From an uncultured virus (IMG/VR IMGVR_UViG_3300037520_001345) (Duplodnaviria; Heunggongvirae; Uroviricota; Caudoviricetes): 55,665 nucleotides of DNA. This document shows positions 32,379 to 49,407 of the stretch, piece by piece (within the stretch, counting starts at the first letter, position 1; each line of letters starts with the position of its first letter). A program made the translations under genes and the position numbers. The notes below the pieces were generated by a model. That model saw only the letters and a list, made by a program, of their open reading frames with translations. It did not search any database and was not told where the DNA came from. The stretch is from the IMG/VR virus record IMGVR_UViG_3300037520_001345; one strand, written 5' to 3'.

Positions 32379-32456
32379 TAAGTTGTTGATACATAAACAC
32401 TTAGGTACTATTCTCTCTCCAAAATTTGACGTAAGTACTTATGGGATATAGAGTTA
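32379..32456. repeat. 78-bp paired-palindrome element, copy 1
   Basis: TAAG-N17-CTTA, 28-bp spacer, TAAG-N17-GTTA. Confidence 0.85.
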
Positions 32457-32600
32457 TGTCAATGATTTAGAAAAAATCAGAAAATTTTGTGTTTGGCATG
32501 AAATTATATTTGAAAAAATCCAAAGATTTCTCTTGAAAGCGTCGATAAATACTGTATAATGAAAGCACAAGAGAAAAAGAAAGAAGAAAAGGAAAAGAAA

Positions 32601-32831
32601 ATGGAAAACATGATTGTTCTGAACACTGTGGCTGAGTTGCACGACCTGATCAATAACACTGGAATGGATACCTTTGTGAATAGGGTAGCATTTGCTAGTG
32701 ATCTTCTGGAAAAGGTTCGTGAAAATGATAATGTGATCTCAATTGATGAAGAATTGGGATTCATGGATGATGGTGGTTGGATTGAGATTGACGAAATGGG
32801 TTATGTTGTGAAAGATTTTGCAATCTGCTAA
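32601..32831 (+). CDS. Acidic hypothetical early protein
   Basis: MENMIVLNTV... after sigma70-like promoter and purine-rich leader. Confidence 0.7.
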   Translation: MENMIVLNTVAELHDLINNTGMDTFVNRVAFASDLLEKVRENDNVISIDEELGFMDDGGWIEIDEMGYVVKDFAIC

Positions 32832-32891
32832 GGTATTGACAACGGAATAGCCGATACTGTATAATAGAACCAACACAAGAGGGAAAGAACA

Positions 32892-33041
32892 ATGACCATT
32901 CAAGTACAAAACACGATTCGTCGCCTAGTTGCTCGCCATGGATATTCGGCCACGTTTGTTCAGAATATGGGCGAAGGTATTTGTTTGTACAGTATTGGAG
33001 GGATCATGTATCGTATTCGTGGTGACGGAACGATTCTCTAA
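32892..33041 (+). CDS. Hypothetical early protein (49 aa)
   Basis: MTIQVQNTIRRLVARHG... after TTGACA...TATAAT promoter. Confidence 0.6.
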   Translation: MTIQVQNTIRRLVARHGYSATFVQNMGEGICLYSIGGIMYRIRGDGTIL

Positions 33042-33063
33042 GAACATTTGTATAGGCTGAACG

Positions 33064-33141
33064 TAAGCTGTTGGTAGATAAGCACTTACGACAACGTCGG
33101 CCTCCCAAATTCGACATAACTACTTACCCTGTATAGACTTA
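33064..33141. repeat. 78-bp element, copy 2
   Basis: TAAG-N17-CTTA / TAAC-N17-CTTA, starts 53 bp apart. Confidence 0.9.
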
Positions 33142-33176
33142 GAGAAACCTTACGAAATTGCAAGGAAAGTTTTTCA

Positions 33177-33205
33177 TTGACATCTAAAGATTCTCATGGT
33201 ATAAT
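33177..33205 (+). promoter_or_regulatory. Consensus sigma70 early promoter (representative of about 25 in 32.5-53 kb)
   Basis: TTGACA-N17-TATAAT; similar promoters at 32837, 35016, 37973, 38409, 39295, 39927, 40812, 42216, 43484, 44238, 46716, 48227. Confidence 0.85.
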
Positions 33206-33251
33206 GTCGATATAAGAAGTAAGAGAAAAAGAAAGAAAGAGAAAAAGAAAA

Positions 33252-33476
33252 ATGGAAAAAACCACTAACATCAACAGTTTCATCAACACCCTTCCCAAGA
33301 TTGTTCAGAAGAAGGTTTGGAAAGTAACCGACCAAGATGGTACGGTTGTTCAGTATGTTGGTGCTACCGATAATCGGAAAAGTTCTGCACAAGCGTACAT
33401 TGACCAAAAGTATGTTGGTCAAAAGCTTACCCTGACGTTTTCGCACTTCAAAGGATTGATGACCCTCCCCCGATAA
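33252..33476 (+). CDS. Hypothetical early protein; paralog of 35078..35281
   Basis: MEKTTNINSFINTLPKI vs MEKTTHINSFISSLPKI. Confidence 0.8.
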   Translation: MEKTTNINSFINTLPKIVQKKVWKVTDQDGTVVQYVGATDNRKSSAQAYIDQKYVGQKLTLTFSHFKGLMTLPR

Positions 33477-33536
33477 GAGGGGTTGACGGGGCGACAAAGT
33501 TTGATAGAATTCTGGAAAGAGAAAGAGAGAAAGAAA

Positions 33537-33734
33537 ATGAATTTTGGATACGAAACTTGGCATACGATGAAGTTTGGCAATACCACTGCAACCTTCAAGG
33601 TTTATCCTAGTGGTTCCTTTGTGATTCAAACCATCCTGCGTGATGGAAAGAATGTTACCGATAGCCTTTTGGCTAATCGTAGTGTCTCTGGATTGATTCG
33701 GTTCAATGTCGCCAATAATCTTATCAAGTATTGA
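33537..33734 (+). CDS. Hypothetical early protein
   Basis: MNFGYETW... after promoter and purine-rich leader. Confidence 0.65.
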   Translation: MNFGYETWHTMKFGNTTATFKVYPSGSFVIQTILRDGKNVTDSLLANRSVSGLIRFNVANNLIKY

Positions 33735-34017
33735 AAGAATTCTAATGATTACAGCTATCGAATATTTTCAGCTGTTTGCCTTGATTGCTTTTGCCGGTTT
33801 CATTTCGTATACTGTTCACGAAGTGGGTAACGCTGTTCAATCCATCCTGCATGAGAACGACTAATGAAAAAGTGGATTTGTTATAATGTGTTGGGAGAGA
33901 ATCCAGAGACTATAGATACTTTTGGAATAGTTTCTGGATTGGGTATCTTGGCTTTGCTGTTTGGTAGTTGGGCTTTCCTGTTTGTTTTTCTTCCTCTATA
34001 TGTTTGGATAATGTAGT

Positions 34018-34348: not shown

Positions 34349-34537
34349 ATGTTCACTGCAGAAAATACTCCACGATATGGACAAACCGTGATGCACGGCT
34401 CTAGGGTTGTTACTGTACGTTCGTTCATGGGCGTACTTGCCGATGCTGTGTATGGTACAGAAAATGCGTGGGCATCTGTACAGGATGAGGATGGTAAGGT
34501 ATACAACTGTTCACTATATGAGCTGAGTCCGACGTAA
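34349..34537 (+). CDS. Hypothetical protein
   Basis: Stop codon TAA is the first 3 nt of repeat copy 3. Confidence 0.65.
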   Translation: MFTAENTPRYGQTVMHGSRVVTVRSFMGVLADAVYGTENAWASVQDEDGKVYNCSLYELSPT

Positions 34538-34612
34538 ACCCTTAGCTCGTAACGACTTACGACGAGCGGGGCGTCGAAAATTTGACGTAAGTGCCTATAG
34601 AATAACGACTTA
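34535..34612. repeat. 78-bp element, copy 3
   Basis: TAAA-N17-CTTA / TAAG-N17-CTTA. Confidence 0.9.
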
Positions 34613-34810
34613 CGACAAATGTCTTGTGCTGATTACTTTCTAGGCACACCATATGTAGCGTAACGCAAAATGCTACACTTATCAATATCTCGGCCAAAAA
34701 TGCTAACGCAAAATGCAAATCACTGTTGCAAAATGCTACGCTTAAAAACTAGGCACAGAAAGTAGCATAGTGTTTTGCCCGAGAAAAACGCAAGAAAAAT
34801 ATTTTTGGCT

Positions 34811-35895: not shown

Positions 35896-35973
35896 TAACC
35901 CGTTGCTACATAAGCACTTAGAGCAAAGACGGCTCGCCAAACTTGACGTAAGTGGTTTCTGCCTATAGAGTTA
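35896..35973. repeat. 78-bp element, copy 4
   Basis: TAAC-N17-CTTA / TAAG-N17-GTTA. Confidence 0.9.
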
Positions 35974-36122
35974 CAGCTAATCTGATCGGGTCGCAAACGC
36001 TATGCCAAATCTCTCTCTCAAACCTTACGACTTTGTAAGGAAATTTTTCCTGGTCTAGGCTATTGACATTGGACGATAATTATGGTATAATGATAGAACA
36101 AGAAAGAAAAGGAAAGAAGAAA

Positions 36123-36784: not shown

Positions 36785-37150
36785 GCGATTTTATTTTGGT
36801 ATGGGTCTGGATGGGGGTAATGCTTTTTATTCTGGCCTTGGTCTATTTTCTCTCTATTGTGGGAGAAGTTTGGCAAAGGATAAATGAATATGAGGCTATG
36901 AGGAGTCGGGGATATACTCTTATGCAGAATGAAGAAGATGATGATTTTTGGGTTGGGTACGGAGATTGACCAAATAACAATGGAGATGCAAGGATGTATC
37001 AATTGGATTTCGTTAGTGTCGCTTTCGGTTATATTTGTGGTATTGTACTGTACGCTAGTATGTCAAATATCATGTATATGGAGGAAAATGATGAGAGCGA
37101 GTGACTACATATTGTGGGGGGTGTGTTTTGTTATCGGCTGTGCTATGACG

Positions 37151-37228
37151 TATCTCCTTCATCTGTAAGGACTTACGTCGAGTCCGGCCCGCCCCGCGAA
37201 GCGTAAGTGCTTATGCTCCAACACTTTA
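37151..37228. repeat. 78-bp element, copy 5
   Basis: TATC-N17-CTTA / TAAG-N17-TTTA. Confidence 0.9.
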
Positions 37229-37339
37229 CGACAACCTTACGAAATTGCAAGGAAAAACTTTTATGGTAGGGCTTGCAATGGGTCGATAATAAGTGTAGAA
37301 TCAAAGCATCACGAACGGAAACCCAAACGGAGTAGAATC

Positions 37340-37859: not shown

Positions 37860-37937
37860 TAAACCCTTTGTGCGTAAGCACTTAGGGCTGGCGGGGCGGC
37901 ACGAATTTGATCTAAGTCCTTATGCTACAATACTTTA
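37860..37937. repeat. 78-bp element, copy 6
   Basis: TAAA-N17-CTTA / TAAG-N17-TTTA. Confidence 0.9.
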
Positions 37938-38604
37938 CGTCAACCTTACGAAATTGTAAGAAAACTTCCTGCTTGACATCTAAAGTTTCTATGCTATACT
38001 TGTCGATATAAGAGATAGAGAAAGAGAGCGAATGATGAAAAGTGAAGAAGAAAAGCGTATCGAAGAGTATAACCGATTCATGGATGAATGGGAAAAGCGT
38101 CCTAAGAATCGTGATCTGTATGGCAATAATTGCTATCGCCCCGATGAGGTGGCGTTAACTGATGAAGAGTATGAGATGTTTGGCTAGGAGTATAAAAATG
38201 AGAAAGCTAACTCAGAGAGAAGTTGACGATCTAGAATTTGATGCTGGACTTATGGGTTTTCGAGTGGTCTACATTCCGAAACCTCTCGACTGGAATCATT
38301 TCGTTCTGTATTATCTTCAACCAGAATTGACCTATGTTGGTCACTATCGTGGTTTGAATGAAGTCAAAATGGGTATGCAAAAACACTACAGACCAGTAGA
38401 AACTAGGCTTGACAGCTAAGATTTTTGTGATAGAATGTCGATATAAGAAGAAGAGAAAAAGAGAATGAAAACGAAAAAGAAAGTATTGACAGCACACCAG
38501 AAAGCAGTTATGCTTATGGATCGTGAGACGAATCGTGCAGTGAATCGTGTGAAGATGTTGGAACAGTTGTATCTTGAAACCATGAAAGCAAAGGAACTTG
38601 TTAA

Positions 38605-38835
38605 ATGAAGTGCGTTGTTACCCATACGGATACTTTTGGTGGCGAAGCTAACTATGGTTGGGTGAATCGATATGAGTTCATCCCAAAAAAGAATGCTTCT
38701 CAGCGTAGCGTTGTTCGTAAGGCTAAGGCTCTTGCTGGTATGACAGCTGTCAAGGCTGACACTCATGATTATGGTGATGGCTATACTGTGAAGCCTCGCG
38801 GATATTCTCAAATCATCTTTGTTGATTTTGAGTAA
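38605..38835 (+). CDS. Hypothetical phage protein
   Basis: TDTFGGEANYGWVNR motif; 76 aa. Confidence 0.75.
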   Translation: MKCVVTHTDTFGGEANYGWVNRYEFIPKKNASQRSVVRKAKALAGMTAVKADTHDYGDGYTVKPRGYSQIIFVDFE

Positions 38836-38857: not shown

Positions 38858-38935
38858 TAAACCCTTTGTGTTCAAGCACTTAGGGCCGACGGGGCGGGCC
38901 GGGTTTGTTGTAAGTCCTTATCTGCCAACACTTTA
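38858..38935. repeat. 78-bp element, copy 7
   Basis: TAAA-N17-CTTA / TAAG-N17-TTTA. Confidence 0.9.
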
Positions 38936-39033
38936 CGAGAATCCTTACAATCTCGTAAGATTCAAGTTTACCCCTTGCAATAGACGATAATAGATAGTAG
39001 AATACGATATAGAAGAAAGGCAAGGGTAAAGAC

Positions 39034-39297
39034 ATGAGTCCCGATGGAACATATAACGGTTATGCGAACTACCAAACATGGAATGTTTGCTTGTGGATTA
39101 GCAATGATGAAATGTTGAATGGTCTGGCTGATCAGTGCATCTCTTACGATCATTTCAAGCTTTTGCTTCGTGATGTTTTTGAGACTCATCCTGTGCGATA
39201 TGAAACGCCCGATGGAGTCTCTTGGAATGATAGCGGTATCAACCTTGCGGAAATGAAAGAGTATTGGGAAGAAAATTTTTCTAAAGTTCCCGCTTGA
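39034..39297 (+). CDS. Hypothetical phage protein (YNGxxNYxTWNVxLW type)
   Basis: Motif YNGYANYQTWNVCLWISNDE. Confidence 0.75.
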   Translation: MSPDGTYNGYANYQTWNVCLWISNDEMLNGLADQCISYDHFKLLLRDVFETHPVRYETPDGVSWNDSGINLAEMKEYWEENFSKVPA

Positions 39298-39367
39298 CAA
39301 ATGACGATAATTAGTGTAGACTTGGCGTATGAATGGTGTGATTGGTTTTCTAACTGAAAGGGTTCTT

Positions 39368-39781
39368 ATGAACGATGTAGTTTTGTTTGGTTCGATTCTT
39401 GCGGCTGTTGCCGCTGCTGTTGTGGGTTTCGTCTTCTATTCGGTCTACGGTGGATCGAAGGCTAGCTTGGCGAATGCTCAAGAGGGTCAGGTTTTCAATT
39501 TTGAATATGAACAGCCTTTGCATGGGGAACCGAAGCGTTTCCTTGCTAAGGTGATTGAGCCTGTCTATACTCTGAGCGATTCATCTATCAAGGCTTTGAA
39601 TCGCCGTAGTCGATATCGTAAGAATGACCCTGTGTTTCAGCGTACTAACCATCTGGTGACTTGCCAGACTCCTGACGGTAAGATTCGACAGTTCTATGCT
39701 GAGAGAGTGAAGAATTGCCGAAAGCCGTTGCTTGCTGGTGCTCTGTTCAAGAGCGGTGTGTCCAACCTGTTTGTGTTCTAA
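39368..39781 (+). CDS. Membrane-anchored protein with SH3/WYL-like C-domain
   Basis: N-terminal hydrophobic helix; FEYEQP...R...DGKIRQFYAERV. Confidence 0.55.
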   Translation: MNDVVLFGSILAAVAAAVVGFVFYSVYGGSKASLANAQEGQVFNFEYEQPLHGEPKRFLAKVIEPVYTLSDSSIKALNRRSRYRKNDPVFQRTNHLVTCQTPDGKIRQFYAERVKNCRKPLLAGALFKSGVSNLFVF

Positions 39782-39817
39782 AAATAGGCAGTCTCTGCCT
39801 ACTAACTGACCAACCCC

Positions 39818-39895
39818 TAAGTTGTTGCTACGGCAGCACTTAGGGCGAGGTCGGCCCGCCACGCGAGTCGTAAGTCTTTATCCCCCAACACTTTA
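39818..39895. repeat. 78-bp element, copy 8
   Basis: TAAG-N17-CTTA / TAAG-N17-TTTA. Confidence 0.9.
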
Positions 39896-39979
39896 CGACA
39901 ATCTTTTTTTGCTCAAGTTTTTCCTCTTGACAGGCCGATAATAGTAGTGTAGAATACAGAGAATCAAAAGGAGAAAAAG

Positions 39980-40243: not shown

Positions 40244-40378
40244 GTACCGATACCTATATAGTAATGAAGGGTAATAAGGTGGTAGGCTATGTTCAAGCGT
40301 ACAGTACCTATCATGCTTTGTGTCAGGCTGAGAAACTTTATGGGAAGAATTTGCTGATCGAGCGAATCTCTCATAGTT

Positions 40379-40424: not shown

Positions 40425-40485
40425 AATAGTCGGGGCTTGACAAAGAGTCTTTAATAGAGTATATTGAGCAGAAAAGGGGAGTTTT

Positions 40486-40689: not shown

Positions 40690-40692
40690 TCG

Positions 40693-40770
40693 TAAGTCCT
40701 TATCCTTAAACAACTTAGGGATAGGGCGGGCGGCCGAACTTGATGTAAGTGCTTGTGTATCATAGGGTTA
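40693..40770. repeat. 78-bp element, copy 9
   Basis: TAAG-N17-CTTA / TAAG-N17-GTTA. Confidence 0.9.
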
Positions 40771-41990: not shown

Positions 41991-42106
41991 GATTATGAAA
42001 ACTTTTAGTGATATGTGTGATTGTGGCAACTGTAATGAAAGTATGTATACTGTTGATAAGTATGGTCTTGTTTGGAGTTTATGCGGAGATTGTGGTTGGT
42101 GGTACA

Positions 42107-42184
42107 TAAGTTACCGCTACATAACGACTTAGAGCAAATCGGGCGGGCCGGTTTCGACGTAAGTCCTTACCACTAAAGACTTTA
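42107..42184. repeat. 78-bp element, copy 10
   Basis: TAAG-N17-CTTA / TAAG-N17-TTTA. Confidence 0.9.
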
Positions 42185-42264
42185 CGATTAGCAATATTTT
42201 TTCAAGATTCCCTCTTGACTTGTCGATAATAGTAGTGTAAGATACTAGCAACACGAAAGGGAAA

Positions 42265-42510
42265 ATGATGACTGTTGCTGAATTGATCGAAGAACTGAAC
42301 AAGCTGCCCCAAGATATGCTTGTGCTTGTGCCGGGTTATGAGGGTGGATACGACAATATCGAAGTTCAGAGGAATGGGGCTGTTGTTCTGGACGATAATT
42401 GGGATGGACAAGAAAAGTTTTATTGGTATAATGGGCGACACGCCTCATACTACAAGGATATGGAAGGCGACGAGCCTACGTCATGCGTTGTTATCGGGAG
42501 AGGTAAATGA
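42265..42510 (+). CDS. Hypothetical phage protein
   Basis: MTVAELIEELNKLPQDMLV...GYEGG N-terminus common in small phage proteins. Confidence 0.75.
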   Translation: MMTVAELIEELNKLPQDMLVLVPGYEGGYDNIEVQRNGAVVLDDNWDGQEKFYWYNGRHASYYKDMEGDEPTSCVVIGRGK

Positions 42511-43016
42511 AAACGGTCGAAAAACACGCCGAAGTACGATTCCATCTGCTCAATGGGCAGAATTATCGGAAGTGGCAAGTAAATATTATGCAGGGTAAGA
42601 AAAGGGTTGACCAATTTTATGTAGATCCTACAGAATACCAGTTAGAGATGCGTGGTTGCAAGCTGGTAAACAAAGTAGCTAGGGCGAAATGGGTCAACAA
42701 GAAACAGAAAAAGAATGTGAGTGGATGGGTTCAGTGTGAAGAAGTTATGCTTCGCAAGGATTTTTATCCATCTTTGCCTATTGACAATCTTGAGAAGTTG
42801 TATTATAATCCCATTCGTGATGTTCACTGGCGACGAGAGAGTGATGGTGGTGAATTTGTTTGGGATAACAGTGAGTATGACACCTTAGTTACCGATGGGC
42901 GACAGGTTCATATTCTGGAAGAACGTAACGGAAATTTTGACGGTATTTACGAGATAGACCCTAAGTATACAGAAAGTTTTGGAATTTATGATCAAAATCG
43001 AACTGAGCGTGCGTGA
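42507..43016 (+). CDS. Hypothetical phage protein
   Basis: 169 aa; VRFHL..G.NYRKWQV. Confidence 0.75.
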   Translation: MKTVEKHAEVRFHLLNGQNYRKWQVNIMQGKKRVDQFYVDPTEYQLEMRGCKLVNKVARAKWVNKKQKKNVSGWVQCEEVMLRKDFYPSLPIDNLEKLYYNPIRDVHWRRESDGGEFVWDNSEYDTLVTDGRQVHILEERNGNFDGIYEIDPKYTESFGIYDQNRTERA

Positions 43017-43362
43017 GTCCCTGAACATGATTGCAAACGGTTGCAGTCTTGATATGTTCGACAAGATTGTGTGTGCGTTGGAAGTGGCACTGGGTGTGAA
43101 CCAGCGTCGTATGGTAACGATTACCGGAGGTCTGACTCTGGACAATCGTATCCATTCCATCAAGGCTATTCGGCTTCATACCGGATGGGGCTTGAAGGAA
43201 GCCAAGGATTGGAGTGACTATCTGGTTGGTGGCTGGCATTACGACAAGTTCGTTCCTGCCAAGTCCGGGGCCAAGCAGAGTATCACTCTGAAAACACCCG
43301 AAGCGGCAGAGGCACTGCTGCGTGATCTGGTGGGTTTGGGTTGTGAGGGTTATCTCTCATGA
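42988..43362 (+). CDS. Ribosomal protein L7/L12 C-terminal-domain-like protein
   Basis: RIHSIKAIRLHTGWGLKEAKDW...AAEALLRDL matches bL12 CTD pattern (KIxVIKxVRxxTGLGLKEAKD). Confidence 0.75.
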   Translation: MIKIELSVRESLNMIANGCSLDMFDKIVCALEVALGVNQRRMVTITGGLTLDNRIHSIKAIRLHTGWGLKEAKDWSDYLVGGWHYDKFVPAKSGAKQSITLKTPEAAEALLRDLVGLGCEGYLS

Positions 43363-43364
43363 CC

Positions 43365-43442
43365 TAAAGCCTTGTCCCTAAAGAACTTAGGACGAGGCGG
43401 GGCGGCCGAATTTGACGTAAGTCCTTGCTACCAAACAGCTTA
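43365..43442. repeat. 78-bp element, copy 11
   Basis: TAAA-N17-CTTA / TAAG-N17-CTTA. Confidence 0.9.
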
Positions 43443-43647
43443 GGACAAAATCAAAAATCTTTGAGAGACACTCAAGTTCGCCCTTGACAATGACGATACT
43501 ATACTGTAGAATGAGAGTATCACAAGTCAAGACTCCTCGATGATGCCAACAAGAAAAACCATCACGACGGACTTGACAAGTGGGTAACAGTAACGTATAC
43601 TGGTACTAGAACGATTTGGAAACTATAACAATTTTGGAGAAGATAAG

Positions 43648-43905
43648 ATGAAGAAGTTTACTTTTGCTGTTGACGTTGTGGCTGATGAGCTTGATCGTGA
43701 TTCTGTGGTTGATTCGATTCGTGATTGCCTGAGTACCAGCCTTCCCGGCGATGTTCATGCTAATGTCAAGGCCGGTGAGGTCAAGGCGTTCAGTGAGCAG
43801 GGATATAAGGTGTGGCGAGCTAGGGTTACGGGTGTTACTGCCGAGCAGGCCGGTGATGCCCATGATGGTAAGGTAGAAAAGGAAGCTACCGAAGCGGTTG
43901 CATGA
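43648..43905 (+). CDS. Hypothetical protein
   Basis: 85 aa; GGAG RBS; followed by GC-rich hairpin 43928-43965. Confidence 0.75.
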   Translation: MKKFTFAVDVVADELDRDSVVDSIRDCLSTSLPGDVHANVKAGEVKAFSEQGYKVWRARVTGVTAEQAGDAHDGKVEKEATEAVA

Positions 43906-43971
43906 TCGACCGTAAGGAGTTATAATGGCTGCGAGCCTCCACGGGACGCCGTGGGGGCTTGCGGTATTGAC

Positions 43972-44043
43972 GGCCCCATAGTTAAATGGATATAATAAGT
44001 GACTTCTAATCTCTAGTTGCAGGTTCGATTCCTGCTGGGGCTA
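43972..44043 (+). tRNA. tRNA-Arg(TCT)
   Basis: Cloverleaf; anticodon loop CTTCTAA; T loop TTCGATT. Confidence 0.85.
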
Positions 44044-44048
44044 TTGTT

Positions 44049-44122
44049 GGGGGTGTAGATCAATTGGTTAGATCGCTAGCTTGTCACGCTAGAGGTTGCG
44101 GGTTCGAGTCCCGTCACTCTCG
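44049..44122 (+). tRNA. tRNA-Asp(GTC)
   Basis: CTAGC-TTGTCAC-GCTAG anticodon arm. Confidence 0.9.
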
Positions 44123-44129
44123 TTTGTCG

Positions 44130-44207
44130 TAAACCCTTTGAGCATAAGCACTTAGGGCAGGCCCGGCCGCCCCGGTTCATCGTAAGTCCTTATACCACAA
44201 CAACTTG
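44130..44207. repeat. 78-bp element, copy 12
   Basis: TAAA-N17-CTTA / TAAG-N17-CTTG. Confidence 0.9.
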
Positions 44208-44287
44208 CATCAAGAATAATTTTTTGAAGTTTTTAGCTTGACTATGCCGATACTATAGTGTAGAATCGGTAGACACAGGAGAAGAAC

Positions 44288-44992
44288 ATGAAAACTGCTG
44301 ACGGTAATGATAAGTTGGGTAAGGGTTGCATTGTGGTTAGTCGTCCGGTTGGCGATACTTGCCCGCCCGATTGCGACTATCTCGGAAACGGCTGCTATGC
44401 CGAAGCTACTGAAAATCAGTATAAAAATGCCCGTACTGCCGGTTTTGCTAATGTCATAACGGAAAAGAATAAAATCCGTGCTATGATTCTGGAAGCAAAA
44501 CGTCGTGAGAAGTCTATTCGCTGGCATGAGCGTGGCGACTGGTTTCTCAATGGCGAACTTGACCTAGACTATGTTGCTAATGTAACGTGGGCTTGTGAGA
44601 GTATTCTTGCCGATGGTGATACGTTGCCCGATATGTGGTTTTATACTCATATCTACGATTCTCGGCTTGTGAGTCTGGAAAAGTATATGAATGTGTACGC
44701 TAGTGTGCATGACGATAACGATATGGGCGAAGCACTGGCACAGGGGTTCAAGCTGTTCGCATGGTGTGACAGCGACATGAAGATTGCTCCGAAGCGTCCT
44801 AAGAGCAAAGCAAAAGCCGAAGCATGGCGACAAGCACTGCCGAAGCTGGTGGTTCTCAATGCCACAAAGTTTGTGGTATGTCCAGAAATCCGTCGTGGTA
44901 GGTCAGAAATCACTTGCACCGGCACTAAAGATAGTATATCATGTGACTTGTGTGTTCGTGGTTTGGCTAATGTCTTGTTTCCAGCCCATTGA
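44288..44992 (+). CDS. Cys-rich Gp88-like phage protein (possible Fe-S enzyme)
   Basis: GNDKL...TCPPDC...CYA...IRWHERGD...YTH...CPE...TC...CDLC. Confidence 0.6.
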   Translation: MKTADGNDKLGKGCIVVSRPVGDTCPPDCDYLGNGCYAEATENQYKNARTAGFANVITEKNKIRAMILEAKRREKSIRWHERGDWFLNGELDLDYVANVTWACESILADGDTLPDMWFYTHIYDSRLVSLEKYMNVYASVHDDNDMGEALAQGFKLFAWCDSDMKIAPKRPKSKAKAEAWRQALPKLVVLNATKFVVCPEIRRGRSEITCTGTKDSISCDLCVRGLANVLFPAH

Positions 44993-45003
44993 AAGGAATA
45001 AAA

Positions 45004-45573
45004 ATGAGCTACGTTGGATTGTATGATGATGCAGGAAGTAAAAATGCTTTCTATATTGTCAAAGATAAAAAGATTGGCCGGAAGCGCGTGGGCTTCAAAG
45101 AGTTTGAGAACGAACAAGAGGCACAGTTTGCCCATCGTGTTCAGTCTCATTTGGCACAGTTTGATTTGGCCCCTATGGTATATGGGGATGTTGGTTTTAT
45201 TCGTAGGCATGATGGTGAAATGACTTGTTATGGTTATTTGACCGAAGTTGCTCGGCCTATGCCAGAATGTCATGATGACGAATATTGTGATGGTGAATGT
45301 TTTCAGAGTTGCTGTAAGAATGGTATCGCTATCATGCAAGTGGTGTCTTATTTGAGCGAATATGGTTTGGATTATAACGATGCCCATAGGGGTAACTTTG
45401 GTTTTGTTCGACGCAAAGGATACTGGATTCCAGTTGTAATTGACGTAGGTATTGAGAGTTTTAGCGATTGGGATGAAAATATTTATGGACAGTTTGATTA
45501 TGCTGCTGACGAGTTTGATGAATACGGGCGATGTAATTGTGTTCAATGCAAAAAGTTCCGAGAGGAAGAATAA
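45004..45573 (+). CDS. Minimal protein-kinase-like fold protein
   Basis: Gly loop DAGSKNAFY, VGFK lysine, LAPMVY, YLTE hinge, catalytic DAHRGN, VIDVG. Confidence 0.7.
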   Translation: MSYVGLYDDAGSKNAFYIVKDKKIGRKRVGFKEFENEQEAQFAHRVQSHLAQFDLAPMVYGDVGFIRRHDGEMTCYGYLTEVARPMPECHDDEYCDGECFQSCCKNGIAIMQVVSYLSEYGLDYNDAHRGNFGFVRRKGYWIPVVIDVGIESFSDWDENIYGQFDYAADEFDEYGRCNCVQCKKFREEE

Positions 45574-45803
45574 TGAGCAAATACTATATCAAATGTGGGA
45601 CACTAGAACTAATTTATTCCTGCAATAAATGTCCACGGGATGCTGCGATGGATGCTATATGGGAAACAAATGAAAATGATACACTAGATGAGCATATCTA
45701 TCTTGATGAACGTGGATATAAAGACTATACAAATGCTGATGGATTAACTTGCGTATTACATACTAGCCATATTCTAAAAGATGCCGGATGGACTTTAGAG
45801 TAA
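45573..45803 (+). CDS. Hypothetical protein
   Basis: MSKYYIKCGTLE...LDERG; TAATG coupling. Confidence 0.65.
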   Translation: MSKYYIKCGTLELIYSCNKCPRDAAMDAIWETNENDTLDEHIYLDERGYKDYTNADGLTCVLHTSHILKDAGWTLE

Positions 45804-45812
45804 GACTAGCCG

Positions 45813-45890
45813 CAAACCCTTACTGCGACAGCACTTAGGGCGAGCGTGGCCGCCCGGCTTTGACGTAAGTCCTTATCCCACAACGCTTTA
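45813..45890. repeat. 78-bp element, copy 13
   Basis: CAAA-N17-CTTA / TAAG-N17-TTTA. Confidence 0.9.
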
Positions 45891-45982
45891 GAGCAAATCT
45901 AAAAATCTTCTAAAGTTTCTACGCTGGATTGGTCGATAATGTAGATATGAGAACGAGACGAGAATCAACAAGGGGTGAGAGA

Positions 45983-46342
45983 ATGATCCAGTGGGTTGGG
46001 ATTGTGATTACGATTTTAGGTTTGGCATATACGGGAATCAAGGACTACCAGAAAGGGGACATAAAATTTCCCAAGATGCCTCAAAAACAGGTCTTGACAA
46101 AGGTAGTTTATCCGATACAATACTGTCTGATGGCTTACGACCCTAACATTGATAGAATTTTTTACCTACACGAAAATGGAATCTGGTATGATTACCCTCC
46201 ACAACAACGACGATATTCGACCACGCCGCAACCATATCAAGCTCAAGGTCAGGCCGCAGTGGCAAGTCCCTACGGGACACAAGGAGCATCGGTATACCGT
46301 TATGGACAATCGCCCCAAGCGTCAACGAACCCGATCCGCTGA
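45983..46342 (+). CDS. Membrane-anchored hypothetical protein
   Basis: MIQWVGIVITILGLAY N-terminal TM helix. Confidence 0.55.
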   Translation: MIQWVGIVITILGLAYTGIKDYQKGDIKFPKMPQKQVLTKVVYPIQYCLMAYDPNIDRIFYLHENGIWYDYPPQQRRYSTTPQPYQAQGQAAVASPYGTQGASVYRYGQSPQASTNPIR

Positions 46343-46392
46343 AAATCGCAGGGCTTGCGACAACGGAGACTATTGAGTATAATAGTAGGATT

Positions 46393-46465
46393 GCCGATGT
46401 AACTCAGTTGGTAGAGTAGCAGTTTTGTAAACTGCCTGTCATCAGTTCGATTCTGATCATCGGCT
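46393..46465 (+). tRNA. tRNA-Thr(TGT)
   Basis: GCAGT-TTTGTAA-ACTGC. Confidence 0.9.
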
Positions 46466-46466
46466 C

Positions 46467-46537
46467 TCCGGGATGGTGAAACGGTATCACAAAGGATTTT
46501 GGTTCCTTTTTTCTACGTTCGAATCGTAGTCCCGGAA
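46467..46537 (+). tRNA. tRNA-Gln(TTG)
   Basis: AAGGA-TTTTGGT-TCCTT. Confidence 0.85.
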
Positions 46538-46542
46538 TTTAT

Positions 46543-46614
46543 TGGCTCGTAGCTCAATGGTCGAGCTGGCGGCTGTTAACCGCCCGGTTGTAGGTTCGAG
46601 TCCTACCGAGCCAG
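46543..46614 (+). tRNA. tRNA-Asn(GTT)
   Basis: GGCGG-CTGTTAA-CCGCC. Confidence 0.9.
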
Positions 46615-46616
46615 TT

Positions 46617-46703
46617 GGAATCTTGGCCGAGTGGTTTAAGGCAGCGGTTTACTAAACCGCCGAGGGTTAAAATCCTCCGTGGGTTCGAATCCCTCAGATT
46701 CCG
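46617..46703 (+). tRNA. tRNA-Ser(ACT), long variable arm
   Basis: GCGGT-TTACTAA-ACCGC; variable arm GAGGG-TTAAAA-TCCTC; G73. Confidence 0.85.
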
Positions 46704-46754
46704 CTAAAGATTCTCTTGACAACAGACGATAACTATGGTATGATCAAACAACAC

Positions 46755-46830
46755 GGGGCGTAAGGTAAGCCGGTTGCATCCGACACTCTTATAAGGTGTT
46801 CATAGGTCTGTTCGACTCAGACACGCCCTA
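46755..46830 (+). tRNA. tRNA-Ile(TAT)
   Basis: ACACT-CTTATAA-GGTGT; atypical D arm. Confidence 0.7.
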
Positions 46831-46861
46831 TTCGGAGGCTGACGATTGAGTTACGATGGCT

Positions 46862-46933
46862 GGCCCTATAGTCTAACGGCTAGGACGACAGCCTTTCACG
46901 CTGTAGATTGGAGTTCGATTCTCCATAGGGTCA
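46862..46933 (+). tRNA. tRNA-Glu(TTC)
   Basis: ACAGC-CTTTCAC-GCTGT. Confidence 0.9.
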
Positions 46934-47058
46934 TTAGTTTCTGCTAATCCTTCGGATTTGGAAGTTTTGGGAGTAGTCAGCCAGAATTTCTAAGCCTTGA
47001 CCACTTGACAAGTCGATATTGATATGGTAGACTATTGGAACAAGAAAGGAAACCTGAG

Positions 47059-47235
47059 ATGAAGAATCTTCGTATCTATGATATTGTGACTGAGGACGGT
47101 AAGACCCTGGCCGACATTCAATTGTCCGTGCAAGAGGATTTTGATTGGGTCGATGTATTTGATAAGCTGTATGATATGACCAGTGAGAATGTAGAAAGCT
47201 ATTCTTACGAGGAGACTACAGTAAATCCCGAATAG
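47059..47235 (+). CDS. Small acidic hypothetical protein
   Basis: MKNLRIYDIVTEDG... after promoter. Confidence 0.6.
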   Translation: MKNLRIYDIVTEDGKTLADIQLSVQEDFDWVDVFDKLYDMTSENVESYSYEETTVNPE

Positions 47236-47241
47236 TTTGAT

Positions 47242-47314
47242 GGGCCTTTAGCTCAATTGGCAGAGCAAGGAGCTTTTAACTCTTAGGTTCGGGGTTCGAG
47301 TCCCCGAGGGCCCA
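47242..47314 (+). tRNA. tRNA-Lys(TTT)
   Basis: AGGAG-CTTTTAA-CTCTT. Confidence 0.9.
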
Positions 47315-47366
47315 CTTGACAGAGACAATTGTTGGTGTAGAATACAGGTAAGAAAGGGAGTAAATT

Positions 47367-47546
47367 ATGAGATATGAAGATCACTACGACGGCTACAATT
47401 ATGACTATGATGATCTTCTAGAAAATACTGAGGATCTTGGTCTAGAAGAAGAACCTTGGATGCAAGACATTGAGGAGGATGATGATCAGGTTCCATCTTA
47501 TGGAAAAAATTATTATCCAAACATTTCAGAAGAAGATGACGATTAA
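47367..47546 (+). CDS. Extremely acidic peptide (59 aa)
   Basis: MRYEDHYDGYNYDYDDLLENTEDLGLEEEPW...EEDDD; own promoter and GGGAG RBS. Confidence 0.65.
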   Translation: MRYEDHYDGYNYDYDDLLENTEDLGLEEEPWMQDIEEDDDQVPSYGKNYYPNISEEDDD

Positions 47547-47641
47547 TATTGTGGATGCTTCTAGGTGGGACTAGAATCTTTTCTATTATTTCTTTCTTTT
47601 CTTGATAAAGTACGTTCGAATCGTACCATCCACTCTTTTTT

Positions 47642-48145
47642 ATGAACACTTTCCAGCAAGAACTTGATGATTTTCGTCGTACCCCTGACGGAAAGATTAT
47701 CCAAGGCGCTGCCCATACCAGCAGAGTATTGAATCACAAATATCGAAATAGTGTGATTATCAAGGCTATCTGTTCTCTGCGTAAGATTGAGAATAATTTT
47801 GATAGTATTGCTTGCTGTGGAGTAAGTGGCTTGATGGTGGTACCACAGATTGCAGAGATTCTTAATAAGAATATTATTGTTATTCGTAAGGGTGAGCGAC
47901 GGTATAGTGAATTCTTTATCGAAGGCGTTGCTCCATCTAATTATGTTATTGTGGATGATTTGATTTGTTCGGGAAGCACAGTTAAACGCATTATGAACAA
48001 TATTCATGATGATGTTCCACGAGCAAAATGTATTGGTGCATATTTTTATATGGGAGAAGAGTGCGCCTATAATGCTTCCAATTCTAAACTTTTTGAGAAG
48101 CAGTTTGGAACGATCATCCTAAACCCTTACCAGCCAAAGACTTAG
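47642..48145 (+). CDS. Type I phosphoribosyltransferase-domain protein
   Basis: PRPP-binding loop VIVDDLICSGST; IACCGVSG; VIRK. Confidence 0.85.
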   Translation: MNTFQQELDDFRRTPDGKIIQGAAHTSRVLNHKYRNSVIIKAICSLRKIENNFDSIACCGVSGLMVVPQIAEILNKNIIVIRKGERRYSEFFIEGVAPSNYVIVDDLICSGSTVKRIMNNIHDDVPRAKCIGAYFYMGEECAYNASNSKLFEKQFGTIILNPYQPKT

Positions 48146-48197
48146 AACAAAGCTGGCCCGCCCCGGCCTCCGTAAGTGCTTACGCAGCAACGACTTA
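48120..48197. repeat. 78-bp element, copy 14 (overlaps PRTase 3' end)
   Basis: TAAA-N17-CTTA / TAAG-N17-CTTA. Confidence 0.9.
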
Positions 48198-48297
48198 CGA
48201 CACGAAATTTTTTCCAAAGTTTTTGCTTGACAGTGACGATAACATACTGTAGAATGAGTGAAGTAGAACGATTGAACACAACACGAAAGGGATGATT

Positions 48298-49248
48298 ATG
48301 GCTCATGCAGTTGAACAGATGATGTTTGTTGGTGCGACCCCGTGGCATGGTCTTGGTAACCAGCTTGACGAAGCTCCCACAGTTTCGGAGGCGATGACTG
48401 CCGCCGGTTTGGATTGGGAAGTTGGTCTGAAGGATTTAGTCACGGTGGACGGTCAACCCGTTCCGGCCCGTGCTACCTATCGCAAGACCGACGATAGTAT
48501 TCTGGGCGTTGTCGGCCCGCGATACACTCCGCTGCAAAATAGCGAAGCGTTCGATTGGTTCCAGCCATTTCTGGACGCTGGCGAGTGTGCATTGCATACT
48601 GCCGGTTCTCTCCATAGTGGTCAGAAAGTTTGGGTTCTGGCCCAACTGAACCGCGACAATAGCGAGATCGTGAAGGGCGACGAGGTTGGGAAGTTTATTC
48701 TTCTCAGCAATTCGCACGATGGCACGACCGCTATCCGGGTTGGCTATACGCCGATCCGCGTTGTGTGTGCAAACACTATGGCGATGGCCCATAGCAAGAG
48801 CAGTGGCTCCAAGTTGATTCGTATTCGTCACACACGTTCCAGCAAGACCAATCTGGAAAACGTGCGAGATATTATGGATAACATTAACATGGAGTTTGAA
48901 GCGACTGCGGAGCAGTTCAAGTTCCTCGCATCGAAGAACTTCAATCAGGCCGACGTTCGCCGGTATGTCAAGGTGATGCTCGACATCGACGGTACGCCGG
49001 ACGATCAGATCAAGACTCGTACCAGAAATATCATGGACGAGATTCTGGCTCTGGTCGAAGGCCCGAAGCAGAGTGCAACGGGGGTTCGTGGAACGTGGTG
49101 GGCCGCGTACAACGGCTACAACGAGTATCTGAATTACAACAAGGGTCGCACCGAAGATAATCGGCTCGACAGCCTGTGGTTTGGACTCAACGCGAACGAC
49201 AATACCAAGGCTTTGGAAAAGGCTATGGACTTCGCCCAAGCACTCTAA
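48298..49248 (+). CDS. DUF932-family phage/plasmid protein
   Basis: PWHGLG, AGLDWEV, LGVVG..Y.PLQN, NSHDG, TPIRVVCANT, GTWWAAYN. Confidence 0.9.
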   Translation: MAHAVEQMMFVGATPWHGLGNQLDEAPTVSEAMTAAGLDWEVGLKDLVTVDGQPVPARATYRKTDDSILGVVGPRYTPLQNSEAFDWFQPFLDAGECALHTAGSLHSGQKVWVLAQLNRDNSEIVKGDEVGKFILLSNSHDGTTAIRVGYTPIRVVCANTMAMAHSKSSGSKLIRIRHTRSSKTNLENVRDIMDNINMEFEATAEQFKFLASKNFNQADVRRYVKVMLDIDGTPDDQIKTRTRNIMDEILALVEGPKQSATGVRGTWWAAYNGYNEYLNYNKGRTEDNRLDSLWFGLNANDNTKALEKAMDFAQAL

Positions 49249-49274
49249 TCTCCTTCGCCATGGGGGTTGCACGG

Positions 49275-49310
49275 GAGCCGCCACTCAGCAATGGGTGGCG
49301 GTTCTTTTTT
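49275..49310 (+). terminator. Rho-independent terminator
   Basis: GAGCCGCCAC...GTGGCGGTTC followed by T6. Confidence 0.8.
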
Positions 49311-49329
49311 GTAGATGTTCTGCTTGACG

Positions 49330-49407
49330 TAAACCCTTACCAGTAAAAGACTTACGTCGAAAGCGGCCCGCGAATTTAGTCCTAAGTTCAATACTGGCAA
49401 GGACTTA
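49330..49407. repeat. 78-bp element, copy 15 (followed by extra single palindromes)
   Basis: TAAA-N17-CTTA / TAAG-N17-CTTA; further sites at 49432, 49483, 49645. Confidence 0.9.

What the first reader, a model, noticed from the sequence alone, without database searches (positions are those of the whole stretch)
32379..49407. Fifteen 78-bp paired-palindrome elements divide the early region into cassette-like blocks
Seen: elements start at 32379, 33064, 34535, 35896, 37151, 37860, 38858, 39818, 40693, 42107, 43365, 44130, 45813, 48120 and 49330. Each has two 25-bp imperfect palindromes (consensus TAAGTNCTT-N7-AAGNACTTA, often extending to TTGACG...CGTCAA). The two start exactly 53 bp apart (about 5 helical turns) in all 15 copies, although the sequences have diverged. 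Inner arms (ACTTA[C/G]G, CGTAAGT) are better conserved than outer arms, so the whole element is two-fold symmetric. Most copies sit at or overlap a gene 3' end (the stop codon of 34349..34537 is the element's TAA; the PRTase ends inside it) and precede an A-tract and a promoter. They define blocks of 0.7-2.3 kb and are absent from the structural arm. Established: arm-N7-arm geometry is that of tyrosine-recombinase core sites, and integron attC sites are four-box palindromes at cassette 3' ends. Inference: a phage cassette-shuffling system, or a repeated tetramer-binding/looping site acting on the early or first-injected DNA. The N7 cores mostly differ, which argues against ordinary homology-dependent exchange. 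No recombinase is in this window.
Basis: partly seen in the sequence, partly recalled or inferred. Interest (0 to 1): 0.9.

Follow-up and report, generated by a model that had tools for sequence, protein, structure and literature searches.

The report
Double-palindrome docking sites before phage promoters
An uncultured giant lake phage puts the same rigid 78-base pair of palindromes in front of nearly every early promoter; it looks like the landing pad of a still unknown regulatory protein, not like a gene-cassette recombination site.

Summary
Fifteen co-oriented 78-bp elements lie at the stated coordinates, each with two 25-bp imperfect palindromes exactly 53 bp apart. The core pattern gives 30 strand matches against 0.62 expected.

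The element is the upstream half of an early-promoter module: dyad, GC core, dyad, A/T tract, then TTGACA-N17-TAGAAT. In the window, 13 of 15 elements have such a promoter within 100 bp downstream.

In 208 dereplicated copies from related IMG/VR contigs:
- the arms are conserved as sequence, with no base-pair covariation;
- the distance to the -35 box steps by about 10.5-11 bp.

Complete relatives of 186-233 kb carry 15-25 copies, all in one 17-22 kb region. Sister lineages carry quite different dyad pairs before orthologous promoters, with one type per genome.

No tyrosine or serine recombinase was found in 8 records, 6 of them at least 95% complete. Synteny breakpoints are not enriched at the elements.

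Best reading (about 0.6): a docking site for an unidentified, lineage-specific, two-fold symmetric DNA-binding protein that controls host-polymerase early promoters. The integron-like model is not supported. PeSL cassettes and phi29 p4 sites are the closest known systems.

This scan had already noted the same element on other genomes, in six earlier notes.

The parts
32379..32456 (+). double-dyad element 1 (lowest-scoring copy; AT-rich centre)
   Evidence: promoter TTGAAA-16-TATAAT at 32533-32560
33064..33141 (+). double-dyad element 2
   Evidence: promoter TTGACA-17-TATAAT at 33177-33205
34535..34612 (+). double-dyad element 3; its TAA is the stop codon of ORF 34349..34537
   Evidence: no promoter of at least 9/12 within 100 bp downstream
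35896..35973 (+). double-dyad element 4
   Evidence: promoter TTGACA-17-TATAAT at 36063-36091
37151..37228 (+). double-dyad element 5; ORF 36929..37168 ends inside it
   Evidence: promoter TTGCAA-17-TAGAAT at 37273-37301
37860..37937 (+). double-dyad element 6
   Evidence: promoter TTGACA-16-TATACT at 37973-38000
38858..38935 (+). double-dyad element 7
   Evidence: promoter TTGCAA-17-TAGAAT at 38975-39003
39818..39895 (+). double-dyad element 8
   Evidence: promoter TTGACA-17-TAGAAT at 39927-39955
40693..40770 (+). double-dyad element 9
   Evidence: promoter TTGACA-17-TATACT at 40812-40840
42107..42184 (+). double-dyad element 10
   Evidence: promoter TTGACT-17-TAAGAT at 42215-42243
43365..43442 (+). 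double-dyad element 11
   Evidence: promoter TTGACA-17-TAGAAT at 43484-43512
44130..44207 (+). double-dyad element 12; starts 7 bp after tRNA-Asp
   Evidence: promoter TTGACT-17-TAGAAT at 44238-44266
45813..45890 (+). double-dyad element 13
   Evidence: only a degenerate promoter with the CGATAAT spacer motif follows
48120..48197 (+). double-dyad element 14; the PRTase ORF 47642..48145 ends at its column 26
   Evidence: promoter TTGACA-17-TAGAAT at 48227-48255. The orthologous promoter in the type-B phage G012 has a different dyad pair
49330..49407 (+). double-dyad element 15 (last copy; second dyad degenerate)
   Evidence: promoter TTGGCA-17-TATACT at 49443-49471
49273..49306 (+). canonical intrinsic-terminator-like hairpin (15 pairs, then a T run) just upstream of element 15
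   Evidence: It shows that an ordinary terminator is used beside the element
31102..31350 (+). first gene of the early strand: 82-aa protein with an HTH-like segment and an AT-hook (RGRPRK). It is a neighbour of the array, not shown to bind it
   Evidence: The putative recognition helix is the same in dyad types A, B and C

Best explanation
The 78-bp element is the upstream half of a module of roughly 190 bp that drives early transcription. The order is: gene end, dyad 1 (TAAaCCCTT-N7-AAGcACTTA), a GC-rich core around a central GGCCGGCC-like palindrome, dyad 2 (TAAGTcCTT-N7-AAcgACTTA), an A/T tract (...tctaaagttt), a strong host-type promoter (TTGACA-N17-tGTAgAAT with CGATA in the spacer), a leader with ribosome-binding site, then small genes.

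Shown here:
- Four 9-bp arms are conserved as sequence.
- The 53-bp spacing (five helical turns) is exact.
- The element is two-fold symmetric.
- It occurs only in the promoter-rich small-gene region.
- Its distance to the -35 box is quantised in steps of about 10.5-11 bp.
- Related phage lineages carry other dyad pairs at orthologous promoters, with one type per genome.

Inferred: a two-fold symmetric DNA-binding oligomer (two dimers or a tetramer) binds one face of the helix. For the commonest spacing its two dyad centres would lie near -79 and -132, assuming a start site 7 nt after the -10 box. From there it would touch or loop to the host RNA polymerase at the promoter.

The promoters are already near consensus. 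I therefore think the likeliest job is coordinated shut-off, or tuning, of all early promoters by a phage-encoded, lineage-specific factor. Activation by a virion-delivered or host factor is the alternative. The protein itself is not identified.
For: 1. The element is real and rigid: 15 of 15 sites have the exact 53-bp offset; 30 pattern matches against 0.62 expected.

2. It is family-wide. These yielded 247 unique elements, 208 after dereplication at 85%. TAA1-3, TT8-9, AA17-18, AA70-71 and TTA76-78 were not in the search pattern, yet are conserved at about 87-100%.

3. It is not a hairpin. At every symmetric column pair of both dyads, the observed Watson-Crick fraction equals the expectation under independence; the largest excess is 0.54 against 0.44. 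Native and chimeric halves fold equally well, apart from a small effect in the flanks of dyad 1. No Rfam family matches; only tRNAs were found.

4. It is coupled to promoters. Of 196 elements, 130 have a promoter of at least 10/12 with its -35 box at +90 to +160, against 3 of 196 in an upstream control. In the window the figure is 13 of 15 against 3 of 15.

5. It is helically phased. The -35 start peaks at element columns 98-99, 109-110, 119-121, 131-132 and 140-143. R=0.62 at period 11 for 123 cluster representatives. R=0.45 for the 70 representatives outside the main peak, p<0.0005 against a uniform null.

6. It is confined. In five complete genomes, all matches lie in one 17-22 kb region. 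PWM counts are 15-25 copies in the five complete genomes, and 17 and 13 in the partial records G005 and G006. There are none in 78 kb more of this phage.

7. Dyad types are lineage-specific. Type B is CTGCCA-AAA-TGGCAG twice with a 29-bp period. Type C is CCCCC-N6-GGGGG twice with a period of about 32 bp. Both have a GC spacer and are followed by the same promoter type. Each of 12 early regions holds only one type. The promoter before the DUF932 gene is orthologous in the window and in G012, but the dyads differ.

8. A working analogue exists: phi29 p4 binds pairs of imperfect inverted repeats, CTTTTT-N15-AAAATG, beside early and late promoters (PMC3100819, passages).
Against: No binding protein was found.
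- Pfam and PHROGs scans of the window ORFs and of 80 ORFs from the rest of the phage show no clear repressor-type domain.
- Three DNA-binding-like proteins are encoded beside the array: an 82-aa HTH/AT-hook protein, a 273-aa HTH plus coiled-coil protein, and a 220-aa sigma-like protein. They are equally conserved in dyad types A, B and C, so they do not track the dyad type.
- Two type-A-linked small proteins failed as candidates. p49 is absent from complete genomes G007 and G009 and from the 95%-complete G003. p76 has no DNA-binding fold match.

Other points against:
- Two of the 15 elements lack a good promoter.
- Several window spacings are off phase: columns 114, 118, 123, 155 and 168.
- Copies related by descent inflate the phasing statistics, though clustering was applied.
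- A site 60-140 bp upstream is an unusual place for a repressor.
- There are no expression or binding data, and the host is unknown.
- Intragenomic conversion could also produce 'one type per genome' without any protein.
Confidence: 0.6

Rival explanations
1. A PeSL-like composite cassette. The palindromes act as a terminator or attenuator for the upstream unit, the promoter restarts transcription, and homologous recombination between the repeated modules shuffles genes.
For: - The element sits between gene 3' ends and sigma70-type promoters in a region of small ORFans.
- Whole modules are indels. G010 has a 156-bp element, promoter and RBS insertion between two genes that abut in the window at 44988. 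The window lacks an element and a tRNA at 46692-46828 that G010, G004 and G003 have.
- Blocks are gained, lost or split among 9 relatives.
- Type C dyads (C5-N6-G5) resemble the polyG/polyC stem-loops of PeSLs (PMC2839356 section 13).
Against: - No covariation.
- The hairpins are weak: mean -6.5 kcal/mol for dyad 2, no better than chimeras.
- No terminator-like hairpin-plus-T-run site falls on any of the 15 elements.
- A canonical terminator stands just before element 15.
- The geometry is fixed and helically phased, whereas the PeSL stem-loop sits at varying places relative to the promoter (PMC2839356 section 13).
- Breakpoints are not enriched at modules.
Confidence: 0.15
2. A structural or host-factor site. 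The dyads with their GC core bind a host nucleoid protein or gyrase, or act as a supercoil or silencing barrier between strongly transcribed units. BIME/REP elements would be the analogue (recalled, not checked here).
For: - A GC-rich core with GGCCG-like sequence is common to dyad types A, B and C, in a genome of 38% G+C.
- The site lies between tandem strong promoters.
- No phage-encoded binder was found.
Against: - The dyad sequence differs between sister phages that share the same promoter consensus and 90% identical core genes. That fits a phage-specific partner better than a shared host factor.
- The genome-contig scan found multi-copy hits only on short contigs of freshwater metagenome-assembled genomes (MAGs) with discordant taxonomy, apart from one 141-kb contig of an unclassified 'bacterium' MAG. 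I read these as misbinned phage DNA. No host regulon was seen.
Confidence: 0.12
3. An RNA element read from the transcript: a processing site, an antiterminator of the put type, or an end-stabilising structure.
For: All copies are co-oriented with the genes and lie in transcribed 3' regions. T7 early RNase III sites are a recalled analogue.
Against: - No covariation in 208 copies.
- Folding is no better than chimeras.
- No Rfam match.
- The site is two-fold symmetric on both strands.
- Phasing to the promoter is a DNA-level property.
Confidence: 0.05
4. An integron-like or tyrosine-recombinase core site, at which a site-specific recombinase excises and inserts cassettes.
For: The arm-N7-arm geometry, a four-box layout at gene 3' ends, and blocks of 0.7-2.3 kb.
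Against: - No PF00589 or PF00239 in 8 records, 6 of them at least 95% complete. Controls rang in 14 and 12 of 14 genomes.
- Every block has its own promoter.
- Block order is collinear.
- Breakpoints are not enriched.
- The N7 cores are unrelated between copies.
Confidence: 0.03

Closest known systems
PeSL (promoter-early stem-loop) cassettes of T4-type phages (PMC2839356: abstract and section 13 read; PMC4122927: abstract read)
   Same: Repeated intergenic modules in hyperplastic early regions. Each has an AT-rich tract plus a strong sigma70-like early promoter plus a dyad-symmetric sequence, placed between the stop of one small gene and the start of the next. Module-level indels occur between relatives.
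   Different: - The PeSL stem-loop is a stable hairpin, shown to terminate transcription, and it sits at varying positions relative to the promoter.
- Here there are two long imperfect dyads in a fixed 53-bp register, always upstream, helically phased, without covariation and with weak folding.
- Breakpoints are not enriched at the elements here.
phi29 p4 binding sites (PMC3100819, passages read)
   Same: Pairs of imperfect inverted repeats of about 25-27 bp. The specific half-sites are 15 bp apart (CTTTTT-N15-AAAATG there, TAAGT-N15-ACTTA here), with two repeats per region. They lie beside host-polymerase promoters and are bound by a phage early protein that switches the promoters.
   Different: - phi29 has four sites at one locus; here there are 13-25 modules per genome.
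- The sequences are unrelated.
- No p4-like protein was recognised in the ORFs scanned.
- Binding is not shown here.
Dispersed phage or plasmid operator arrays: L5 stoperators, P1 C1 operators, RK2 KorB O_B sites
   Same: Many copies of one operator spread over a genome region and read by one regulator, some at a distance upstream of promoters.
   Different: Those are single short sites, not a fixed pair with a GC core. Stoperators act inside transcription units. None is reported with helical phasing to every promoter.
Baculovirus hr enhancers bound by IE-1 (recalled; one search listing seen)
   Same: Repeated imperfect palindromes that enhance early viral promoters.
   Different: A eukaryotic virus with clustered tandem repeats that also act as replication origins. 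There is no sequence or protein relation.
Integron attC sites (recalled)
   Same: Four-box imperfect palindromes at the 3' ends of gene blocks.
   Different: No integrase. The blocks are self-promoted. There is no folded-strand covariation, and no cassette reordering at the sites.

Membership tests
PeSL cassette | Strong sigma70-like early promoter with an AT-rich upstream tract | tested here: met
   130 of 196 elements against 3 of 196 controls; 13 of 15 in the window; consensus
PeSL cassette | A sequence forming a stable stem-loop that terminates transcription | tested here: not met
   No covariation. Weak folding, no better than chimeras. No terminator-like call on any element. Termination itself cannot be tested here.
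PeSL cassette | Stem-loop at varying positions relative to the -35 and -10 boxes (five subclasses; PMC2839356 section 13) | tested here: not met
   The element is always upstream, at phased distances
PeSL cassette | Recombination between copies produces the indels between relatives | tested here: inconclusive
   Module indels exist, but breakpoints are not enriched at modules. Joints seen in metagenome contigs are ambiguous.
Integron (attC plus IntI) | A tyrosine recombinase encoded with the array | tested here: not met
   PF00589 found in 0 of 8 records; controls rang in 14 of 14 genomes
Integron (attC plus IntI) | Promoterless cassettes expressed from a common promoter | tested here: not met
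   13 of 15 blocks carry their own promoter
Integron (attC plus IntI) | Cassette gain, loss or reordering with junctions in the site | tested here: not met
   Collinear order; no enrichment of breakpoints
Serine-recombinase res/att site | A serine recombinase is present | tested here: not met
   PF00239 found in 0 of 8 records
Intrinsic terminator | G+C-rich hairpin directly followed by a T run | tested here: not met
   None of the 15 terminator-like sites falls on an element. The count of 15 compares with 13.2 expected.
Known RNA family (Rfam 15) | Match to a covariance model | tested here: not met
   Only tRNAs at E of 0.1 or less
phi29 p4-type operator | Paired imperfect inverted repeats with half-sites 15 bp apart, beside host-polymerase promoters | tested here: met
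   TAAGT-N15-ACTTA twice, compared with CTTTTT-N15-AAAATG (PMC3100819). This is likeness of anatomy only.
phi29 p4-type operator | A p4-family protein that binds the sites | tested here: inconclusive
   No such family was reported among 49 + 80 ORFs scanned against Pfam. The genome is incomplete and binding cannot be tested here.

The most novel reading that the evidence does not exclude
Each lineage of these giant lake phages carries a private 'operator code': its own double-dyad before every early promoter, read by its own still unknown regulator. The pair switches in concert across 13-25 promoters even between phages whose core genes are about 90% identical. Such a system would be a master switch for the host-takeover programme. 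It could also act as an immunity-like exclusion between competing virulent phages, because a resident phage's factor would silence only incoming genomes of its own type.
Probability: 0.25. Interest if true: 0.8.

Novelty: new variant of a known kind. Interest (0 to 1): 0.6.

Why it matters
If the reading is right, a large and widespread group of uncultured freshwater phages controls its whole early programme through one rigid upstream site with four half-sites. The group is large: 541 TerL relatives in IMG/VR, with genomes up to about 233 kb. The site is helically phased to host-type promoters, an arrangement not described for bacterial viruses in the papers I could search.

The concerted replacement of the dyad type between close relatives gives a natural experiment on how a regulator and dozens of its sites change together.

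The modules are also compact, strong, portable promoter units with a built-in control site, which could be useful as parts once the binder is known.

This scan has now met the element repeatedly on other genomes, so it is a family trait and not a peculiarity of this window.

Tried and rejected
- **Close cultured relatives:** none. Megablast of 18 kb against 50,697 phage records gave no match. The best TerL hits are at 25% identity.
- **Own assembly:** not held. I worked through records G001 and G002 of the same phage.
- **Hairpin and RNA readings:** rejected on covariation and chimera tests and on Rfam.
- **N4-like virion RNA polymerase with hairpin promoters:** considered because type B dyads have a 6-bp stem and a 3-nt loop. 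The giant ORF of G001 is a tape-measure protein by PHROGs, and no polymerase signal was seen.
- **p49 (32892-33041) as binder:** it is 90-100% identical in many type-A loci, but absent from the complete genomes G007 and G009 and from the 95%-complete G003.
- **p76 (38605-38835) as binder:** present in 7 of 7 type-A early regions that cover its position and not found in B or C. Its confident model (pLDDT 91.6) has no PDB fold match at E of 0.001 or less and no DNA-binding likeness.
- **The 82-aa HTH/AT-hook protein, the 273-aa HTH plus coiled-coil protein and the sigma-like protein:** none is linked to dyad type.
- **Type-B-specific ORFs:** those that looked conserved overlap the dyads themselves and are probably spurious. 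The rest show no DNA-binding features by eye.
- **Sequencing runs:** no RNA holder was listed. The four runs laid were metagenome contigs only. Joints touching elements exist, for example 38929 to 44301 and 45897 to 39918, but they may come from relatives or from assembly at repeats, so they are not used as evidence.
- **Host:** not identified. Multi-copy hits in genome contigs lie on MAG contigs of discordant taxonomy from lakes.
- **Literature:** an 11-nt arm motif gave only unrelated eukaryotic papers. A search on jumbo phages, early promoters and inverted repeats gave nothing on this element. These two searches and the PeSL search are the whole basis for saying it is not in print.
- **Complex prediction:** not used, because no candidate pair justified it.

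Full report
**What the window is**

The window comes from an uncultured, siphovirus-like lake phage.
- The - strand from 1 to about 31,000 holds structural and packaging genes: tape-measure protein 3-4772, portal 23497-25677 and TerL 25732-27765.
- The + strand from 31,100 onwards holds dozens of small ORFs, mostly without family matches, and ten tRNA genes.
- No cultured phage is close.
- Two IMG/VR records are the same phage at 100% identity and extend it to about 132 kb.
- Relatives with 72-87% nucleotide identity in this region are 186-233 kb genomes that CheckV rates complete.
- Public runs holding the stretch are lake-water metagenomes.

**The observation**

The core pattern ACYTA-N28-TAAST hits every copy at the same register. 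That is 30 strand matches including one stray, against 0.62 expected. A weight-matrix scan finds no other copy in the window.

The consensus from 208 dereplicated copies in IMG/VR, with element columns in brackets, is:
- TAAa.ccTT (1-9)
- N7
- AAggACTTA (17-25)
- a GC-rich stretch with a central GgccggcC (36-43)
- tt.GaCg (47-53)
- TAAGTcCTT (54-62)
- N7
- AAcgacTTA (70-78)

The inner arms are the best conserved and the N7 centres are free. The whole element is two-fold symmetric about column 39.5.

**What surrounds it**

Downstream of each element come a short A/T tract ending in ...AAAGTTT and a near-consensus promoter. The aligned consensus is aaaatttttctaaagttt.ctcTTGACA.t..c.gataa.ta.tGTAgAAT.
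- CGATA occurs in the spacer of 60 of 81 promoters, against 2 of 196 in a control window.
- An extended -10 TG occurs in 56 of 81.
- In the window, 13 of 15 elements have such a promoter within 100 bp, against 3 of 15 upstream controls.
- Across relatives the figure is 130 of 196 against 3 of 196.

Upstream, the element abuts or overlaps a gene or tRNA end in about two thirds of the copies (hand count). The unit is therefore gene end, element, promoter, next gene.

That the element and promoter travel together is seen directly. G010 has a 156-bp insertion of element, promoter and ribosome-binding site between two genes that abut in the window at 44988. The coupling is not absolute, though. At 46692-46828 the window keeps the promoter but lacks the element and a tRNA that three relatives have.

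**DNA site or folded strand?**

With 208 diverged copies, a functional hairpin should show compensatory changes. It does not.
- At every symmetric pair of both dyads, the fraction of Watson-Crick pairs equals what independent columns predict. The largest excess is 0.54 against 0.44, at the pair just outside dyad 1.
- Swapping half-elements between copies does not weaken the predicted folds, except slightly for the flanks of dyad 1.
- Rfam finds only the tRNAs.
- None of the terminator-like sites falls on an element, and a textbook terminator stands 24 bp before element 15.

The arms are thus kept as sequence. That is the signature of recognition by a protein.

**Geometry relative to the promoter**

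The -35 hexamer starts at element columns 98-99, 109-110 (the mode), 119-121, 131-132 or 140-143.
- After clustering promoters by context, the resultant length is 0.62 at period 11.
- It is still 0.45 for the 70 representatives outside the main peak, p<0.0005 against a uniform spread.
- Shared ancestry of copies inflates such numbers. In this window several spacings (114, 118, 123, 155, 168) are off phase.
- Even so, the ladder is clear.

With a start site 7 nt after the -10 box (an assumption), the modal arrangement puts the dyad centres near -79 and -132.

**Distribution**

In five complete genomes every match lies in one stretch of 17-22 kb. By weight matrix, the five complete genomes have 15-25 copies; the partial records G005 and G006 have 17 and 13. 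The other 78 kb known of this phage has none.

A scan of 596 Gb of prokaryote genomes found multi-copy hits only on contigs of freshwater MAGs assigned to unrelated phyla. Most are short, and one is a 141-kb contig of an unclassified MAG. I read these as misbinned phage DNA.

**Sister lineages**

TerL has 541 relatives in IMG/VR, and 80 loci were fetched with 10 kb of flank. Many carry the same element. Others carry something else at the same place:
- Type B is CTGCCA-AAA-TGGCAG twice, 29 bp apart, with a CG-rich spacer.
- Type C is CCCCC-N6-GGGGG twice, about 32 bp apart, with the spacer TCCGGGCCGGGCGCGA.
- Both are followed by the same promoter type: 8 of 8 and 12 of 13 double dyads have a promoter within 140 nt.

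The type-B record G012 has a collinear early region. Its proteins are 53-93% identical to this window's and up to 90-91% identical to those of type-A genomes. The promoter before the DUF932 gene is plainly orthologous, yet the dyads differ. Each of the 12 early regions examined holds a single type.

The architecture (dyad, GC core, dyad, promoter) is therefore conserved while the recognised sequence is lineage-specific. This argues for a phage-specific partner and against a shared host factor. Intragenomic conversion could also homogenise copies.

**The recombination model**

- No tyrosine or serine recombinase domain is found in the two records that cover this window or in six relatives that are at least 95% complete. 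The same searches rang in 14 and 12 of 14 control genomes.
- The blocks W1-W15 keep their order in all nine relatives. Whole blocks are present or absent and some are split by extra modules.
- Homology breakpoints against the four closest relatives concentrate in intergenic DNA (63 of 94 ends, where 40% of the sequence is intergenic or gene edge), but not at the modules. 22 of 94 lie there against 16.3 expected (p=0.08). Among the intergenic ends, 21 of 63 do against 25.1 expected (p=0.88).
- This test is coarse: HSP ends are imprecise and the relatives are not independent. Still, it gives no support to the elements as preferred crossover points.
On this window I could not confirm that beyond the module indels.

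**Who binds?**

This remains unanswered.
- Beside the array lie a sigma-like protein (30234-30896, -), a 273-aa protein with a weak N-terminal HTH and a long coiled coil (29429-30250, -; possibly the small terminase), and an 82-aa protein with an HTH-like segment and an AT-hook (31102-31350, +).
- All three are present in types A, B and C at similar identity. The putative recognition helix of the 82-aa protein (TTAMVRRQRRKL) is the same throughout.
- By eye, the type-A locus L342 groups with the type-B loci in these proteins. No tree was built.
- They may read the invariant parts of the module, such as the CGATA spacer motif, but that is speculation.
- Two small proteins restricted to type A were tested and dropped.

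**Comparison with known systems**

PeSLs share the place, the promoter and the evolutionary setting. They differ in that they are real, variably placed terminator hairpins (PMC2839356 abstract and section 13; PMC4122927 abstract).

The anatomy of each dyad, and the pairing of two dyads beside host-polymerase promoters, is closest to the phi29 p4 sites (PMC3100819, passages). That similarity is one of working principle only.

The operator arrays of L5, P1 and RK2, the baculovirus hr/IE-1 enhancers, and integron attC sites are recalled comparisons, not checked here.

I found no paper describing this element. Supplementary files were not consulted.

**Verdict**

The feature is real, rigid and family-wide. 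It most likely works as a helically phased docking site for an unidentified, lineage-specific regulator of early promoters (confidence about 0.6). The integron-like reading is not supported. A PeSL-like evolutionary role remains possible as a side effect of repeated modules.

The same element had already been reported by this scan on six other stretches of related phages, with the same main conclusion.
- the exact alternative dyad types;
- the one-type-per-genome rule;
- the orthologous-promoter comparison;
- the negative breakpoint test;
- the exclusion of five candidate binders.

Noticed in passing
L325:1-7700 and L346:1-6000 (reverse strand is the early-gene direction); also G012 and G014 regions L369-L371: In the type B and type C sister phages, the dyad pair is followed, on the opposite strand, by a motif matching the sigma54 -24/-12 consensus (TGGCAC-N5-TTGCW). 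It points back into the dyads: 6 antisense copies in G012 and 11 in G014, against 0 in this window's early region and 0-4 in other type-A regions. Its meaning is unknown.
   Followed up: partly
window 41329-47315: Ten tRNA genes are interspersed among the early blocks, including two tRNA-Ile(TAT). Several sit directly before an element or between a promoter and the next gene. Relatives differ in tRNA content at 46692-46828.
   Followed up: partly
window 32892-33041: A 49-aa ORF is 90-100% identical in protein across relatives whose neighbouring proteins are only 50-75% identical. It is nevertheless missing from the complete genomes G007 and G009 and from the 95%-complete G003. It has no family match.
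   Followed up: partly
window 31102-31350: The first gene of the early strand encodes an 82-aa protein with an HTH-like segment (…TGQNITTAMVRRQRRKL…) and an AT-hook (RGRPRK). It is conserved beside the array in all dyad types and has its own TTGCGG-N16-TATAAT promoter without an element.
   Followed up: partly
window 30234-30896 (-): A sigma-70 region-2-like protein with a cysteine-rich insert (C-x2-C … C … C). It opens the structural arm and diverges from the early region. It may be a phage late sigma factor.
   Followed up: no
window 34613-34770: Element 3 is followed not by a promoter but by three copies of ACGCAAAATGC(T/A)A, bracketed by two CTAGGCACA motifs.
   Followed up: no
promoters after the elements, e.g. 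window 39927-39955, 43484-43512, 48227-48255: The early promoters share a CGATA(A/C)TA motif at a fixed place in the 17-bp spacer (60 of 81 promoters, against 2 of 196 controls). It is also present in type B and C phages. It may be a second, invariant control site.
   Followed up: partly
window 3-4772 (-) continued in G001 (L288:5100-17927): The tape-measure ORF continues beyond the window to at least 4275 aa, which implies an exceptionally long tail. ORFs of 2526 and 1795 aa follow it.
   Followed up: no
window 38605-38835: A 76-aa protein present in all seven type-A early regions that cover its position folds with high confidence (pLDDT 91.6, beta-beta-alpha-beta-beta-beta). It has no PDB fold match at E of 0.001 or less.
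   Followed up: yes
window 28447-29427 (-) and 31347-32264 (+): A GDP-mannose 4,6-dehydratase and an NAD-dependent epimerase flank the start of the early region. The epimerase has no counterpart in the nine relatives' early regions.
   Followed up: no
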